From an uncultured Candidatus Saccharibacteria bacterium (GTDB taxonomy: Bacteria > Patescibacteriota > UBA1384 > JAMDBS01 > DAOVQR01): 64,000 nucleotides of DNA. The stretch spans positions 7,963-71,962 of the forward strand of contig CAYZSW010000001.1 in assembly GCA_964481135.1 (NCBI GenBank), given 5' to 3'. Made by a program: the position numbers and the translations under genes. Within the stretch, counting starts at the first letter, position 1. The number at the start of each line of letters is the position of its first letter. The notes beneath the pieces were generated by a model. It ran no database searches. It had not been told where the DNA came from and worked only from the letters and a program-made list of their open reading frames with translations. This document shows, in pieces, positions 6,549 through 16,206 of this stretch.

Positions 6549-6689
6549 ATAAACTACCTCCCAGCAAGCTACGAGATATAAATTGAAATAATTTATACGA
6601 AGCAACCTGCCTGCCTGTCTGCTGATAAGGCAGGCAAGGCAGGGCTTCGGGGAATTCACCCACTTGTCCGCCTTTGGCGGATTAAATTT
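6549..6689 (+). promoter_or_regulatory. conserved upstream element, copy 1: ATAAACTACCTC..GCAAGCT (6549-6575) and GGAATTCACCCACTTGTCCGCCTTTGGCGGATTAAATTT (6651-6689), split by a GC-rich hairpin insert
   Basis: A near-identical ~65-nt sequence recurs at 16143-16206. Both copies end ~30 bp before a sigma70-like promoter. Confidence 0.4.
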
Positions 6690-6718
6690 ATTTTTTATAA
6701 ACACAATGTAAAGTTAAC

Positions 6719-12046: not shown

Positions 12047-12577
12047 TTACTTTTTAATTTGAAAACTAAACATTGTAAGTGAAATTCCAAATATTAAAGC
12101 ATAAACGCCAATCACCCAAACAATAAATTCTAAACTAATAATTGGGAAAAATAAAATTGTTATACCAACAATTAAAGATATCGCTCCGACAGTACTTAAA
12201 AGCCATTTGCCGATAACCTCTCCTTTTGTGGAAAAACCAACTATTAATTCCATAATTCCTGCAATAACTGCCCATATTGCAACAAAATAAATTAGTGTTA
12301 ATACTGTAATAGCTGGCCAAACAAAAATTAATACTCCAATTATAATCCCTAAAATACCATTTAATAAGTAAATCCACCACTTTTCATGATGATCCTTTGC
12401 TGAAAAAGATCCGATGATCATAATGATACCACTTAAAGAAGCATAGATTGCAAACAATACTACAATTGTTTTAATAGTAAGTCCTGTCCAAAAAAGTGCT
12501 ATTAATCCAAATAAAATCGCTAAAATTCCCCTAAATAAAATTACTCCAGAATACTTTGACAAATAATTTTTATTCAT
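12047..12577 (-). CDS. DUF308/HdeD-like membrane protein
   Basis: 176 aa, six short TM helices with the repeated small-residue pattern typical of the HdeD family. Confidence 0.5.
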   Translation of the reverse strand: MNKNYLSKYSGVILFRGILAILFGLIALFWTGLTIKTIVVLFAIYASLSGIIMIIGSFSAKDHHEKWWIYLLNGILGIIIGVLIFVWPAITVLTLIYFVAIWAVIAGIMELIVGFSTKGEVIGKWLLSTVGAISLIVGITILFFPIISLEFIVWVIGVYALIFGISLTMFSFQIKK

Positions 12578-12631
12578 ATTAATCCTTTCATAATTTTAAT
12601 TATAACAAAAATTATAAAAGTTGTATAATTA

Positions 12632-12660
12632 TTGACCAAAAAAAATATATCTGTTATAAT
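12632..12660 (+). promoter_or_regulatory. sigma70-type promoter (TTGACC, 17 bp, TATAAT) upstream of tRNA-Lys
   Basis: Hexamers and spacing read directly; ~55 nt upstream of the tRNA. Confidence 0.5.
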
Positions 12661-12715
12661 CATTTTTGACCTCATCAAATTGTAAAAAGAAAATTATTAA
12701 TCATGCACTCAGGAA

Positions 12716-12790
12716 GGGCCTGTAGCTCAGTGGTAGAGCAGGAGCCTTTTAAGCTCTGTGTCATGGGTTCAATCCCCATCAGGCCCTCCA
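12716..12790 (+). tRNA. tRNA-Lys (anticodon UUU), CCA encoded
   Basis: GGGCCTG/TA/GCTC-AGTGGTA-GAGC/A/GGAGC-CTTTTAA-GCTCT/GTGTC/ATGGG-TTCAATC-CCCAT/CAGGCCC/T/CCA. Complete cloverleaf with a TTCAATC T-loop and anticodon TTT. Confidence 0.9.
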
Positions 12791-12829
12791 GATACAAGCC
12801 CTTCCTGAGTGCATATATAAATAAATTAA

Positions 12830-13072
12830 GCCTTTTAAAGTCCGGCGGGGATAACTGTGCCAATCTGTATCATAGTTTCGACCTCGTGCCGTATACCACG
12901 ATTCTGTAATAACAGGATGTAATCCGTTTTACAGAAAGCTGTGCCCAGTATACGACGATTCTGTCATATTAGAACATAATTCAATTGACAGAAAGGAGTT
13001 TTACCGGGGAGTTATGCTGGTATTCCCATATGACCCTCCAAAAAATCACCAGAAATTTGGTGATTTTTTTAT
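12830..13072 (+). ncRNA. candidate small structured RNA: two tandem hairpin modules plus an intrinsic terminator
   Basis: Repeated units GTATAC(C/G)ACGATTCTGT(A/C)A..loop..T(T/G)ACAGAAAG, then CCGGGG..CCC, then the terminator at 13043-13072. No ORF, in a large noncoding gap. Confidence 0.3.
13043..13072 (+). terminator. rho-independent terminator
   Basis: AAAATCACCAGAAATTTGGTGATTTTTTTATT: 8-bp stem and a T run. Confidence 0.7.
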
Positions 13073-13223
13073 TGTATATATTGCCATATAAAAAATATAA
13101 TTAACATTTTGTCTAGTATTCTTCAACAGCTTTTCAAGCTCTTTCATATGCGATTTCAAAATCTACTTGCACTTTTTTAACTTCTTCTTTTGAGATTTTA
13201 TTTCTTTCATTCCATTGATTACC

Positions 13224-13295
13224 TTTTACTAACCTCCGGGGTTAGTAAAAGGTTTGAACCTGCAAATCTTTTGCAAACCCCGGAGGTTAGTAAAA
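13224..13295. repeat. 18-bp perfect inverted repeat (TTTTACTAACCTCCGGGG / CCCCGGAGGTTAGTAAAA) enclosing a 36-nt sub-hairpin
   Basis: Read directly. It sits in a ~400-bp stretch free of ORFs. Confidence 0.5.
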
Positions 13296-13473
13296 TCAGG
13301 TGATAATTTTAGTATTAGCAAATTTTTGAAGTAACTCATAGCATATTAGGTTTTTGCAAAAAAATATAATTACAAAAAAAATAAAAGACAGAATTTACTG
13401 TCTCTTTTTTTATAACCTATTTTAAAAAGTAATGTATAATATACTTAATAATAAAAATCAAAGGAGGTAAATT

Positions 13474-13788
13474 ATGGATAAGTGTTTTTGCAAAACATGG
13501 TGGGGAATTTTGTTAATGATAATAATTACAGGATTATTGATTTATTTTTTTATGAACATATCAAAAAATAAAAATAGTGATGATAATATTGATGCAAATG
13601 TATTACCGCCTAAATATTTGTCTCAAATGGAAAAATGCGAAATTTTTGGCGGAACAATTGAAAAACAAGATGAAAGCGTGGACTCGTGGCAACAACTAAA
13701 TAAGTGGCGATGTGTTTGCCAAGAAGAAAAAATATTCGATACACAAAGCCAATTGATGTGTAACAAGTGGTACGAACCAGAAATATAA
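13474..13788 (+). CDS. hypothetical small Cys-containing membrane-anchored protein
   Basis: GGAGG RBS, N-terminal TM helix, 6 Cys in the ectodomain. Confidence 0.45.
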   Translation: MDKCFCKTWWGILLMIIITGLLIYFFMNISKNKNSDDNIDANVLPPKYLSQMEKCEIFGGTIEKQDESVDSWQQLNKWRCVCQEEKIFDTQSQLMCNKWYEPEI

Positions 13789-13811: not shown

Positions 13812-15086
13812 TTAGGTACCTTGTTGCCAAGAATTAAGATATTTAATTTGTTCTTGAGTTAGTTTATCTATTTTTATATCCAAAGCTTTAAGTTGAAGTT
13901 TAGAGATTTTTTCATCAAACTCATCCGGTAAAAGATAAACTTTATTTTCTAATTTATTTTGATTATCAACCAAATATTTACAAGCAAAAAATTGATTACA
14001 AAAACTCATTGCCATAATAGTTGAAGGGTGGCCTTCCGCAGCTGCTAAATTACATAATCTGCCCTGTGCAACTAAATATAAACTTTTTTTACCTGTAGTG
14101 TATTTGTCTAAATAAGGACGAATAAATTCTTTTCTATTAGAAATTTTTTCTAAACCATTAACATTAATTTCCACATCAAAATGTCCAGAATTTGCTAAAA
14201 TTGCTCCATCTTTCATAATTTTCATATGAGGAGCGTCAATAACATGAATATTACCAGTCAGTGTAATAAATATATCCCCTATTTTTGCTGCTTGGTTTAA
14301 AGGCATAACTCTATAACCTTCCATTATCGCTTGTAAAGCACAAAAAGGATCAACTTCAGTAACAATTACATTGGCTCCGAGTCCACTGGCTCTGCGGGCA
14401 ACACCTTTGCCGCAATTTCCAAATCCAATAATTACAACTACTTTACCAGCAAATAAAGTATTTGTTGCGCGCAAGATACCGTCAATAGTAGATTGACCAG
14501 TTCCAATATAATTATCCATTAAATGTTTAGTTTTAGAATCATTTACAGCAATAACTGGGTATTGCAGAGCTTTTTCTTTTTCCATTGATTTAAGTCGAAT
14601 AATACCTGTTGTAGTTTCTTCTGCGCCTCCAATTATATACTTAAGCAATTCTCTGTGTCGTGTATGAATTTCAAACACCAGATCACAGCCATCATCAATT
14701 GTAATTAATTTCATCTTTTTTTGTGCCATATCTTTCATAAAATTAATTACAGATTTAATATTTTGATAATATTCTTTTTTACTTTCACCTTTATGCGCAA
14801 AAACTGCAACACCTTCTTTGGCTAAAGCAGCAGCTACATCATCTTGAGATGAAAGCGGATTACAGCTAGCAATTGCAACTTGAGCCCCTGCATGTTTTAA
14901 AGTTCTTACTAAAACTGCGGTTTCTTTTGTAACATGTAATGCCATACCAATCGCAATGTTTTTTAGTGGTTTGGTTTTTTTAAATTCTTGTTGAACTTCA
15001 ATTAAAGCACCCATTTGATTTTCTGCCCAAGTAATATTTTTTTGTCCTTGCGGGGCAAGTTTAATGTCTTTTACAGAATATTTCAT
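13812..15086 (-). CDS. ahcY: adenosylhomocysteinase (S-adenosyl-L-homocysteine hydrolase)
   Basis: NAD-binding GFGNCGKG and catalytic-domain motifs; 424 aa. Confidence 0.9.
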   Translation of the reverse strand: MKYSVKDIKLAPQGQKNITWAENQMGALIEVQQEFKKTKPLKNIAIGMALHVTKETAVLVRTLKHAGAQVAIASCNPLSSQDDVAAALAKEGVAVFAHKGESKKEYYQNIKSVINFMKDMAQKKMKLITIDDGCDLVFEIHTRHRELLKYIIGGAEETTTGIIRLKSMEKEKALQYPVIAVNDSKTKHLMDNYIGTGQSTIDGILRATNTLFAGKVVVIIGFGNCGKGVARRASGLGANVIVTEVDPFCALQAIMEGYRVMPLNQAAKIGDIFITLTGNIHVIDAPHMKIMKDGAILANSGHFDVEINVNGLEKISNRKEFIRPYLDKYTTGKKSLYLVAQGRLCNLAAAEGHPSTIMAMSFCNQFFACKYLVDNQNKLENKVYLLPDEFDEKISKLQLKALDIKIDKLTQEQIKYLNSWQQGT

Positions 15087-15995: not shown

Positions 15996-16142
15996 AATAA
16001 TGATTAATACCTAATATTATCTGTTTTATTATAGCACTACTCTGTATTTTTCCAAACTTTTAATGAACTTCCCTGTGGCTTAAAGACCACAGGGTTTTCC
16101 CCGGCCTCGCTCCGCGAAGCGGGGCGGGCTGGCGAAGGGTGA

Positions 16143-16206
16143 TAAACTACCTCACGGCAAGCTTCGCGGAATTCATCCACTTGTCCGCCTTGAGCAAATT
16201 AAATTT
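16143..16206 (+). promoter_or_regulatory. conserved upstream element, copy 2 (ATAAACTACCTCACGGCAAGCTTCGCGGAATTCATCCACTTGTCCGCCTTGAGCAAATTAAATTT)
   Basis: Matches the dnaK-upstream element. Followed ~20 bp later by TTTACA, 17 bp, ATAATA, and then the 16295 start. Confidence 0.4.

What the first reader, a model, noticed from the sequence alone, without database searches (positions are those of the whole stretch)
12830..13075. Candidate novel sRNA downstream of tRNA-Lys: duplicated hairpin module plus terminator in an 880-bp ORF-free gap
Two tandem units share GTATAC(C/G)ACGATTCTGT(A/C)A-loop-T(T/G)ACAGAAAG. They are followed by a GC clamp and a strong intrinsic terminator at 13043-13072. A sigma70 promoter at 12632-12660 could drive tRNA and sRNA together. 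Gaps this large are rare in such a compact genome. No match to tmRNA, SRP RNA, RNase P or 6S signatures is evident by eye.
Basis: seen in the sequence. Interest (0 to 1): 0.5.

Follow-up and report, generated by a model that had tools for sequence, protein, structure and literature searches.

The report
Orphan structured RNA behind tRNA-Lys
Directly downstream of a lysine tRNA gene, an AT-rich and poorly sampled bacterium carries a roughly 230-260 base, strongly folded, non-coding stretch that looks like a real small RNA of unknown function, but no relative could be found, so it cannot be confirmed.

Summary
Two 48-nt modules lie at 12891-12938 and 12948-12995. A strong intrinsic terminator sits at 13040-13069, and an 11/12 TG-extended sigma-70 promoter at 12632-12660. 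The whole lies in the largest gene-free gap of the window (896 bp).

New here:
- The two module hairpins differ at 10 positions. Eight of these form four compensatory pairs, so the hairpin itself is under selection.
- The + strand folds better than the - strand.
- tRNA-Lys is enclosed by a perfect 17-bp leader/trailer stem.
- The last 19 nt of the RNA copy the last 19 nt of the tRNA (15/19), the only such match in 64 kb.

Rfam 15, ARAGORN and Pfam give no match. No homologue turned up in genome, metagenome, viral, phage or plasmid collections. Same-species contigs are 100% identical, and the closest relative has lost synteny. Conservation and covariation between genomes are therefore untestable here, and expression is untested.

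The best reading is a tRNA-trailer-derived structured sRNA, co-transcribed with tRNA-Lys and released by processing, with two hairpins as likely ligand sites. Rivals are a tRNA/att-site remnant, a cis-regulatory leader, and (remotely) a minimal RNase-P-like core. It is a plausible new sRNA of moderate interest.

The parts
12632..12660 (+). Sigma-70-type promoter TTGACC-17-TATAAT with TG extension. The predicted start is near 12667. It is the presumed promoter for tRNA-Lys plus the downstream RNA.
   Evidence: 11 of 12, the best site in 12400-13600. Function is inferred, not shown.
12703..12727 (+). 5' arm of the inverted repeat that encloses the tRNA. It comprises 13 nt of leader plus the first 12 nt of the tRNA. 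12703-12719 pairs perfectly (17 bp) with 12798-12814.
   Evidence: I2 (25 nt, 92% complementary); also present in the MFE fold.
12716..12790 (+). tRNA-Lys(UUU) with encoded CCA.
   Evidence: ARAGORN; Rfam RF00005 at 71.6 bits.
12790..12814 (+). 3' arm of the inverted repeat (the tRNA trailer). Together with the leader it forms a putative double-stranded processing stem.
   Evidence: A role as an RNase III substrate is inferred.
12815..12836 (+). A/U-rich spacer, the likely single-stranded 5' region of the downstream RNA. 12829-12838, AGCCTTTTAA, repeats the anticodon stem/loop 12743-12752 exactly.
   Evidence: D2; local alignment p about 0.02.
12837..13001 (+). Core of the RNA, closed by the helix AAAgUCC (12837-12843) / GGAgUUU (12995-13001), which encloses three hairpin domains.
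   Evidence: MFE equals centroid; pair probabilities 0.56-0.93 for the closing helix.
12845..12887 (+). Hairpin A: GCGGGG/CCUCGU plus AACUGUG/CAUAGUU, with an 11-nt loop CCAAUCUGUAU. It contains 3 G.U pairs.
   Evidence: pair probabilities >=0.78.
12890..12954 (+). Long hairpin B, which includes module 1 (12891-12938). It consists of CGUAUAC/GUAUACG (the two palindromic GUAUAC copies pairing with each other), CACG/UGUG, and the module-1 hairpin 12902-12936 (8 bp, U, 3 bp, A, 4 bp).
   Evidence: pair probabilities >=0.76.
12948..12995 (+). Module 2: GUAUACGACGA followed by hairpin 12959-12993 (8 bp, U, 3 bp, A, 3 bp). It has the same architecture as module 1, with four compensatory pair changes.
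   Evidence: (D1).
13006..13040 (+). 3' hairpin ('GC clamp', 13 bp). Its 3' strand and tail (13022-13040, ATTCCCATATGACCCTCCA) match tRNA-Lys positions 58-76 including CCA at 15 of 19.
   Evidence: D7; the only >=15/19 match in 64 kb on both strands.
13040..13075 (+). Intrinsic terminator (A6 run, 12-bp stem, T7 tail). It is bidirectional in form, so it would also stop minus-strand transcription from entering the RNA.
   Evidence: (I11).

Best explanation
A single transcript starts at the promoter at 12632-12660 and ends at the terminator at 13040-13075. It carries tRNA-Lys(UUU) followed by a structured non-coding RNA of about 225-260 nt (about 12815-13075), a tRNA-trailer (3' ETS-type) small RNA.

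The tRNA sits inside a 17-25 bp leader/trailer duplex. This duplex most likely serves as a double-strand-specific (RNase III-like) processing site. Cleavage there, plus RNase P and 3' trimming, would release the tRNA and leave the downstream RNA as a separate stable molecule.

That RNA folds into a closing helix, three hairpin domains and a 3' hairpin whose end imitates the tRNA-Lys acceptor/CCA end. Its functional units are most likely the two paralogous hairpins. Each has an invariant lower stem UUCUGU/ACAGAA and an invariant 5' flank GUAUACsACGA, and would serve as two equivalent binding sites for a protein or other ligand (a scaffold or decoy RNA).

Shown: the sequence anatomy, the predicted fold, selection on the hairpin, and the absence of any known-family match. 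Inferred: transcription, processing, stability and any ligand.
For: - The promoter and terminator bracket the tRNA and the RNA on the same strand. No comparable promoter lies between the tRNA and the RNA.
- G+C is about 0.40, against 0.13-0.25 in the flanks.
- The + strand has MFE -60.9 kcal/mol, z -3.1, with the centroid equal to the MFE. The - strand has -56.5 kcal/mol, z -2.0 and a poorly defined ensemble. Seven of the 72 predicted pairs are G.U, which only work on the + strand.
- The module hairpins differ at 10 positions. Eight of these form 4 double (compensatory) changes, one opens the apical pair and one is in the loop. 96.7% of cells are paired, against 30-50% when partners are slid.
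- The leader/trailer stem has 17 perfect bp, or 25 nt at 92%.
- The 3' end copies the tRNA 3' end at 15/19, a match unique in the window.
- There is no coding signal.
- There is no Rfam or ARAGORN match.
- The locus is identical in three independent metagenome assemblies of the same species, so it is not an assembly artefact.
Against: - There is no expression data.
- No homologue was found in any collection, so there is no between-genome conservation or covariation.
- In the nearest relative found (DnaJ 70% identical), the neighbouring DUF308 gene has no tRNA or RNA beside it. The RNA may therefore be species-specific.
- With only two module copies, the covariation statistic is weak (32 of 500 shuffles reach the observed value).
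- All hairpin pairs in the modules are Watson-Crick, so the modules themselves do not tell RNA from single-stranded DNA.
- The fold z-scores are moderate.
- No ligand, target or partner gene is identifiable in the neighbourhood.
Confidence: 0.45

Rival explanations
1. Evolutionary debris of the tRNA-Lys locus. The region would be a decayed partial duplicate of tRNA-Lys, or the remnant of a genetic element that integrated into the tRNA gene. In that case the displaced original 3' end lies at 13022-13040, followed by the tRNA's original terminator, and the direct repeats are former integrase arm-type DNA sites. Any transcript would be incidental.
For: - 13022-13040 matches tRNA positions 58-76 at 15/19, and AGCCTTTTAA (anticodon stem/loop) recurs at 12829, collinear with it. 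A full tRNA plus a partial 3' copy downstream is the classic signature of integration into tRNA genes (established knowledge).
- The neighbourhood to the right holds an orphan ORF and an archaeal-like AdoHcyase.
- Synteny differs in the nearest relative.
Against: - The two tRNA-like pieces are 183 nt apart instead of contiguous.
- No integrase or other mobile-element gene was found among the genes scanned on either side (window 517-33101). The ORFs beyond about 33 kb were not scanned.
- There is no second copy of the segment in the window or elsewhere.
- The trailer at the start of the supposed insert is perfectly complementary over 17 bp to the host leader, which an inserted element would not be.
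- Four compensatory changes preserve the upper hairpin stems, which protein-binding DNA repeats do not need.
- There is a G.U-dependent strand asymmetry in the fold.
Confidence: 0.17
2. A cis-acting leader or attenuator: a tandem-aptamer riboswitch, or a T-box-like or protein-dependent attenuator, whose terminator controls read-through into downstream DNA.
For: Two similar structured modules directly followed by an intrinsic terminator is the architecture of tandem riboswitches and attenuators (established knowledge).
Against: - The next + strand ORF starts 400 nt further on (13474). It is an orphan with its own -10-like box and Shine-Dalgarno sequence, and is separated from the RNA by a palindrome and a second terminator-like hairpin at 13383-13406.
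- The element is preceded by a tRNA rather than a bare promoter.
- No riboswitch or T-box model scores even at E<=10.
- No alternative anti-terminator pairing involving the terminator stem is apparent in the ensemble.
Confidence: 0.07
3. A drastically reduced RNase-P-like catalytic core. The closing helix would be a P4 analogue built from CR-I-like AAAGUCCGG and CR-V-like GACAGAA-N-GGAGUUU, enclosing three hairpins, and co-transcribed with a tRNA substrate. This is analogous to the minimal RNase P RNAs of Pyrobaculum and some yeast mitochondria.
For: - AAAGTCCGG is identical to E. coli M1 RNA positions 65-73, and GACAGAA to positions 346-352. These are the only shared 7-mers apart from one other, and in both RNAs the two blocks lie in the same order and flank the strands of one helix.
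[quoted passage not shown] A catalytic-domain-only RNase P RNA exists in Pyrobaculum (PMC4919922).
- This is an AT-rich reduced genome, and the RNA is adjacent to a tRNA.
Against: - No RNase P model hits at E<=10.
- There are no P1-P3 equivalents upstream.
- The helix has a G.G mismatch where the conserved G-C pair should be, and the universally bulged U is paired.
- ACAGAA is buried in the module-2 stem instead of being a junction.
- A loose CR-I...CR-V descriptor occurs by chance in about 14% of shuffled 64-kb windows.
- GUCCGG also resembles the SRP RNA core, which shows how easily remembered motifs match.
Confidence: 0.04
4. A tandem-repeat antitoxin RNA of a type III toxin-antitoxin-like system, or another repeat-processed RNA, whose partner gene has been lost.
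For: Direct RNA repeats followed by a terminator resemble the toxI-type arrangement (established knowledge). A degenerate reading frame lies just downstream on the other strand.
Against: - No toxin ORF follows the terminator on the + strand.
- The 104-aa ORF is an orphan with only sub-threshold Pfam matches, and the degenerate minus-strand frame has none. No defence-system (PADLOC) library was searched.
- There are only two repeats. They are 48 nt long with 9-nt linkers and divergent loops, whereas toxI-type repeats are near-identical.
Confidence: 0.03

Closest known systems
tRNA-trailer (3' external transcribed spacer) small RNAs, e.g. 3'ETS-leuZ of E. coli (own knowledge; not read here)
   Same: A non-coding RNA encoded directly downstream of a tRNA, made from the same primary transcript and released by tRNA processing.
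   Different: 3'ETS-leuZ is short (about 50 nt), largely unstructured, Hfq-dependent, and acts as a base-pairing sponge. This RNA is about 230-260 nt and highly structured, with duplicated hairpins and its own tRNA-like 3' end. No sequence similarity is expected or seen.
RNase III processing stems around rRNAs (and around some phage or operon-embedded tRNAs)
   Same: A long, perfect leader/trailer duplex (17 bp, extendable to 25) encloses a stable RNA gene.
   Different: Here the stem encloses a single tRNA and overlaps its first 4-12 nucleotides, so it competes with the acceptor stem. Cleavage is inferred only.
Protein-sequestering sRNAs with repeated hairpin sites (CsrB/RsmZ type)
   Same: Several copies of a hairpin with an invariant sequence element on one structured, terminator-ended RNA.
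   Different: There are only two copies. The invariant element is GUAUACsACGA plus UUCUGU/ACAGAA, not GGA in loops. No Rfam Csr/Rsm model hits, and no partner protein was identified.
RNase P RNA catalytic core (P4 helix formed by CR-I and CR-V)
   Same: The 9-nt AAAGUCCGG and 7-nt GACAGAA blocks are identical to E. coli M1 RNA, lie in the same order, and border one long-range helix.
   Different: Everything else that defines RNase P RNA is missing or altered: P1-P3, the bulged U, the G-C pair in P4, CR-IV, P15 and the S-domain. No covariance-model hit.
Attachment-site repeats of elements integrated in tRNA genes
   Same: An intact tRNA is followed downstream by an imperfect copy of its 3' end (15/19).
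   Different: The interval is only 231 bp, has no integrase gene, is single-copy, and begins with a sequence complementary to the host leader.
[quoted passage not shown]
   Same: A structured insert of about 200 nt associated with tRNA sequence in a reduced, AT-rich genome. Such cases escape standard tRNA finders.
   Different: The tRNA-Lys here is intact and uninterrupted. The downstream piece has no 5' exon, no T-loop and no anticodon-stem 3' strand. RF00028 gives no hit, and ARAGORN intron mode finds nothing.

Membership tests
Any Rfam 15 family (4227 models) | Covariance-model score at or above the family's gathering threshold | tested here: not met
   (only the tRNA scores); at E<=10, 12800-13075 gives only terminator-hairpin look-alikes (STnc230 at 23.6 bits against a threshold of 50; RNAI at 17.3 against 47).
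tmRNA | tRNA-like domain formed by the 5' and 3' ends, with a T-arm and ACCA end, plus a tag reading frame | tested here: not met
   ARAGORN finds no tmRNA at default settings or at thresholds relaxed to 70%. No Rfam tmRNA-clan hit.
RNase P RNA | P4 helix from CR-I and CR-V, with a bulged U and a conserved G-C pair | tested here: inconclusive
   The CR-I and CR-V core strings are present and form a helix. In that helix the U is paired and there is a G.G mismatch.
RNase P RNA | P1-P3, CR-IV/J5-15, P15 (or equivalent), and overall model similarity | tested here: not met
   No RNase P model (bacterial A/B, archaeal, type T, nuclear) hits at E<=10. The upstream sequence is an A/U-rich spacer.
Group I intron in a tRNA gene | 5' and 3' tRNA exons flanking an intron with a P3-P8 core | tested here: not met
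   ARAGORN intron mode finds only the intact tRNA-Lys. No RF00028 hit. No T-loop in the putative 3' exon.
Riboswitch / T-box leader | Known aptamer model, and a regulated gene directly downstream on the same strand | tested here: not met
   No model hit. The next + strand ORF is 400 nt away, behind another terminator-like hairpin.
Type III toxin-antitoxin (toxI-like repeats) | Near-identical tandem RNA repeats, a terminator, then a toxin ORF | tested here: not met
   The repeats are 77% identical. No ORF follows the terminator, and the nearest ORF is an orphan with no significant Pfam match. The PADLOC defence library was not searched.
tRNA-trailer (3' ETS) sRNA | Encoded immediately 3' of a tRNA within the same promoter-terminator unit | tested here: met
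   Promoter 12632-12660, tRNA 12716-12790, RNA, terminator 13040-13069, all on the + strand.
tRNA-trailer (3' ETS) sRNA | Accumulates as a discrete processed RNA | not testable with these tools
Integrated-element att site in a tRNA gene | Direct repeat of the tRNA 3' part bounding an element that carries an integrase or other mobile genes | tested here: inconclusive
   An imperfect repeat is present (15/19). The bounded interval is 231 bp with no genes, and no integrase was found among the genes scanned within about 12 kb to the left and 20 kb to the right.

The most novel reading that the evidence does not exclude
The RNA is an extremely reduced RNase-P-like ribozyme. Its core of about 165 nt would be closed by a P4 analogue built from CR-I (AAAGUCCGG) and CR-V (GACAGAA-N-3' strand) look-alikes. 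It would be co-transcribed with, and perhaps acting on, its own tRNA-Lys precursor, in a bacterial lineage with a compact genome.
Probability: 0.04. Interest if true: 0.9.

Novelty: new member of a known kind. Interest (0 to 1): 0.4.

Why it matters
If this RNA is real, it would be a new structured RNA family from a barely sampled bacterial lineage. That lineage is probably of the candidate-phyla-radiation type, where almost no regulatory RNAs are known.

It combines three uncommon features in one transcription unit:
- a tRNA locked inside a long processing duplex;
- a trailer RNA with two paralogous hairpins kept intact by compensatory changes;
- a 3' end that imitates the tRNA's acceptor end.

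It would give a concrete case for studying how tRNA transcription units spawn new RNAs, and how processing enzymes (RNase III, P, Z) define sRNA ends in reduced genomes. If it is only a decayed tRNA/att remnant, it is ordinary.

Tried and rejected
1. Known RNA families. I ran Rfam at gathering threshold on the whole window, then at E<=10 on 931 nt and on 281 nt. Nothing scored but the tRNA and terminator look-alikes. ARAGORN with relaxed thresholds and intron mode added nothing.

2. Homologue hunts by DNA. The strict module pattern gave 0 hits in genome contigs. A looser module pattern gave 0 in metagenome contigs, and a tRNA-Lys 29-mer also gave 0 there. Module and tRNA patterns in viral contigs gave only chance coding hits. 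blastn (distant mode) against phages and plasmids matched only the tRNA part. nhmmer and blastn against all held loci found nothing. The metagenome collection evidently does not hold the JGI contigs of this very species, so its silence is weak evidence.

3. Homologue hunts by synteny.
   - The DUF308 neighbour gave relatives at 64-66% identity whose loci lack the tRNA and the RNA.
   - AdoHcyase has no relative above 67% identity, and those are DPANN archaea.
   - The 104-aa neighbour is an orphan.
   - Same-species contigs are 100% identical.
   - I extended 10 kb beyond the left window end and found no RNA families and no module copies. The right end could not be looked up.

4. Coding. The open + frame (71 codons, no start codon) has no Pfam hit. 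Among 1.84 billion representative proteins, the only match is a low-complexity artefact.

5. Target prediction. I tried RNAduplex against the 61 translation-initiation regions in the window. It gave only long, loopy, uninformative duplexes and I dropped it.

6. Considered and rejected: group I intron, tmRNA, SRP RNA, 6S RNA, T-box, and Y RNA (no Rsr/TROVE-domain gene among the Pfam-scanned ORFs between 517 and 33101).

Full report
**Context.** The window is a bacterial chromosome segment with 30% G+C, the standard genetic code and about 88% coding density. It carries grpE-dnaK-dnaJ, dnaE, lepA, gltX, rplS, murJ, an ECF sigma factor, a sortase and comEC. Its proteins occur in NCBI, JGI, ENA and Logan assemblies, but always as a single genotype. 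The nearest relative I could find has DnaJ 70% and DUF308 66% identical. The gene set and composition suggest a reduced, CPR/Patescibacteria-like lineage. That is an inference, not a result.

**Checking the observation.**
- The two modules are 12891-12938 and 12948-12995 (D1). The 17-mer GTATACNACGATTCTGT occurs exactly twice (three matches at <=3 mismatches, 0.36 expected by chance). The hairpin pattern TTCTGT-N15-30-ACAGAA occurs twice in 64 kb against 0.08 expected.
- The terminator (13040-13069 plus T-tail) and the promoter (12632-12660, TTGACC-17-TATAAT with TG, 11/12) are both found by the scans. Promoter-like sites in general are not enriched in this AT-rich DNA.
- The gap 12578-13473 (896 bp) is the largest in the window.
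- G+C rises to 0.36-0.46 over the candidate, against 0.13-0.25 beside it.
- The fold is more stable than shuffles: z = -3.1 for 12829-13040, -3.5 for 12791-13075 and -5.9 with the tRNA included.

**What else is there.** Four things were not in the finding.

1. *The two hairpins share one architecture.* Each has 8 bp, a bulged U, 3 bp, a bulged A, 3-4 bp, then a loop. They differ at ten positions. Eight of the ten form four double, pair-preserving changes: A-U to C-G, A-U to U-A, C-G to U-A, and G-C to A-U. One difference opens the apical pair and one lies in the loop. No change breaks an internal pair. Sliding the partners by 1-3 columns drops pairing from 97% to 30-50% and removes essentially all of these double changes (at most one chance instance, at the +3 slide). 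With two sequences the shuffle statistic cannot be strong (32/500), but the pattern is what selection on a hairpin produces. By contrast, the lower stem UUCUGU/ACAGAA and the 5' flank GUAUACsACGA are invariant, which points to sequence-specific recognition there.

2. *The predicted fold is well defined.* The centroid equals the MFE, and most helices have pair probability >=0.75. A closing helix AAAgUCC/GGAgUUU encloses three domains. Hairpin A is 12845-12887. Hairpin B is long (12890-12954); in it the two palindromic GUAUAC copies pair with each other (P>=0.94) below module 1. Hairpin C is module 2. A 13-bp 3' hairpin (13006-13039) and the terminator follow. Seven of the 72 pairs are G.U. The minus strand folds less well (z -2.0, diffuse ensemble). 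The terminator is bidirectional in form, so minus-strand transcription should not enter the region. These points favour an RNA on the + strand. GTATAC itself is under-represented in the window (6 found, 21 expected), and two of the six copies are here.

3. *tRNA-Lys is enclosed by an inverted repeat.* 12703-12719 pairs perfectly (17 bp) with 12798-12814, and the pairing extends to 25 nt at 92% (I2). The repeat takes in the first nucleotides of the tRNA, and in the full-length fold it wins over the acceptor stem. The simplest reading is a double-stranded processing site of the kind that flanks rRNAs. This is inferred.

4. *The RNA ends like the tRNA.* 13022-13040 (ATTCCCATATGACCCTCCA) matches tRNA positions 58-76 (ATCCCCATCAGGCCCTCCA) at 15/19, including the discriminator and CCA. 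It is the only site in 128 kb of sequence (both strands) that matches at >=15/19. AGCCTTTTAA from the anticodon arm recurs at 12829. So the RNA is related to tRNA-Lys at its ends, either by descent or by functional mimicry of an acceptor end.

**What it is not.**
- Rfam 15 gives nothing at gathering thresholds, and nothing but terminator look-alikes at E<=10.
- ARAGORN finds no tmRNA and no intron-containing tRNA even at relaxed settings.
- The region has an open + frame of 71 codons. That frame has no start codon, runs through the terminator, has no Pfam match, and has no homologue among 1.84 billion representative proteins apart from a low-complexity artefact.
- It is not a group I intron of the kind recently described in Patescibacteria tRNA genes (PMC13011429). 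The tRNA is intact, and the downstream piece lacks a 5' exon and a T-loop.

**Comparative evidence: none obtainable.**
- Three same-species contigs are 100% identical over 880 bp.
- Module patterns and a tRNA-Lys 29-mer found nothing in the genome or metagenome collections. Viral collections gave only chance hits. Phage and plasmid BLAST matched the tRNA only.
- Synteny walks failed. The relative's DUF308 gene sits next to bipA, without a tRNA. AdoHcyase has no relative above 67% identity, and those are DPANN archaea. The 104-aa neighbour is an orphan.
- The metagenome collection does not even contain the JGI contigs of this species, so absence of hits there says little.

**Mechanism.** I commit to a tRNA-trailer sRNA: one transcript from about 12667 to about 13075. 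The leader/trailer duplex is cut by a double-strand-specific nuclease. RNase P and 3' trimming finish the tRNA. The downstream RNA of about 230-260 nt persists, protected by its compact fold and its terminal hairpins. The two invariant hairpin feet (GUAUACsACGA plus UUCUGU/ACAGAA) would be equivalent binding sites for a protein or another ligand. The acceptor-like 3' hairpin may direct 3'-end processing or add stability.

I put about 0.45 on 'a real, processed, structured sRNA'. I put perhaps half of that on the ligand-scaffold idea specifically.

**Rivals.**
- The main rival (0.17) is that the segment is debris of the tRNA locus, either a partial duplicate or an att-site remnant. The tRNA-like ends, the broken synteny and the foreign-looking neighbours favour it. 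Several observations count against it:
  - the compensatory changes;
  - the strand asymmetry of the fold;
  - the lack of any integrase or second copy;
  - the perfect complementarity of the supposed insert's first 17 nt to the host leader.
- A cis-regulatory leader (0.07) lacks a downstream gene.
- A type III antitoxin-like repeat (0.03) lacks a toxin.

**The RNase-P-like reading.** This is the most novel reading not excluded. AAAGUCCGG and GACAGAA are identical to the CR-I and CR-V cores of E. coli M1 RNA. As in P4, they border the two strands of one helix. CR-I and CR-V carry 11 of the 21 universal nucleotides, and catalytic-domain-only RNase P RNAs exist (PMC4919922).

Against this:
- P1-P3 are missing.
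- The helix has a G.G mismatch and no bulged U.
- ACAGAA is paired in the module-2 stem.
- No model scores.
- A loose CR-I...CR-V descriptor hits about 14% of shuffled windows.

I give it about 0.04.

**Verdict.** The interpretation as a novel sRNA is plausible and somewhat strengthened by the paralogous covariation, the strand asymmetry and the processing stem. It remains unproven, because neither expression nor between-genome conservation could be tested. If real, it is a new family within a known kind (tRNA-linked structured sRNAs), of moderate interest.

Noticed in passing
window 6551-6690 and 16085-16205: Two other intergenic gaps (grpE-dnaK, and the divergent pfkB/NMO gap) hold G+C-rich islands (0.61 and 0.68 over 80 nt, in a 30% G+C genome). 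They share a repeated element: AAACTACCTCmCrGCAAGCTwCG ... GGAATTCAyCCACTTGTCCGCCTT. The 23-mer is present twice, with 0 expected by chance. The first copy carries an insertion of about 75 nt with its own GC-rich hairpin. There is no Rfam hit. This could be a second unknown RNA or a small repeat-element family.
   Followed up: partly
window 13218-13304: A near-perfect palindrome with 33-nt arms (91% complementary, 6-nt loop) that is single-copy in the window. It sits inside a degenerate minus-strand reading frame (...ELLQKFANTKIIT / NQWNERNKISKEEVKKVQVDFEIAYERA*KAVEEY*). It looks like a small pseudogene interrupted by a palindromic insertion. There is no Pfam match.
   Followed up: partly
window 13812-15086 (-): The closest non-self relatives of the S-adenosylhomocysteine hydrolase are only 65-67% identical, and nearly all are from DPANN archaea (Woesearchaeota/Nanoarchaeota). 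This suggests inter-domain gene transfer into or out of this bacterial lineage.
   Followed up: partly
window 13474-13788 (+): A 104-aa ORF with an N-terminal hydrophobic segment and a good Shine-Dalgarno sequence is a complete orphan. Only its own sequence was found among 5.8 billion clustered proteins.
   Followed up: yes
window 12703-12814: The tRNA-Lys gene lies inside a perfect 17-bp (25-nt, 92%) leader/trailer duplex that overlaps the first nucleotides of the tRNA and out-competes the acceptor stem in the predicted fold. This is unusual for a stand-alone bacterial tRNA gene.
   Followed up: partly
window-wide (GTATAC at 12891, 12948, 43519, 48714, 53837, 58880): The palindromic hexamer GTATAC is about 3.6-fold under-represented (6 found, about 21 expected from base composition), as if avoided because of a restriction system. 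Two of the six copies lie 57 nt apart in the candidate RNA.
   Followed up: no
L059 18844-19221 (about 8 kb left of the window start): A gene for a 23S rRNA intervening-sequence protein family member (PF05635) lies just outside the window. No rRNA or other Rfam family was found in that 10-kb extension.
   Followed up: no
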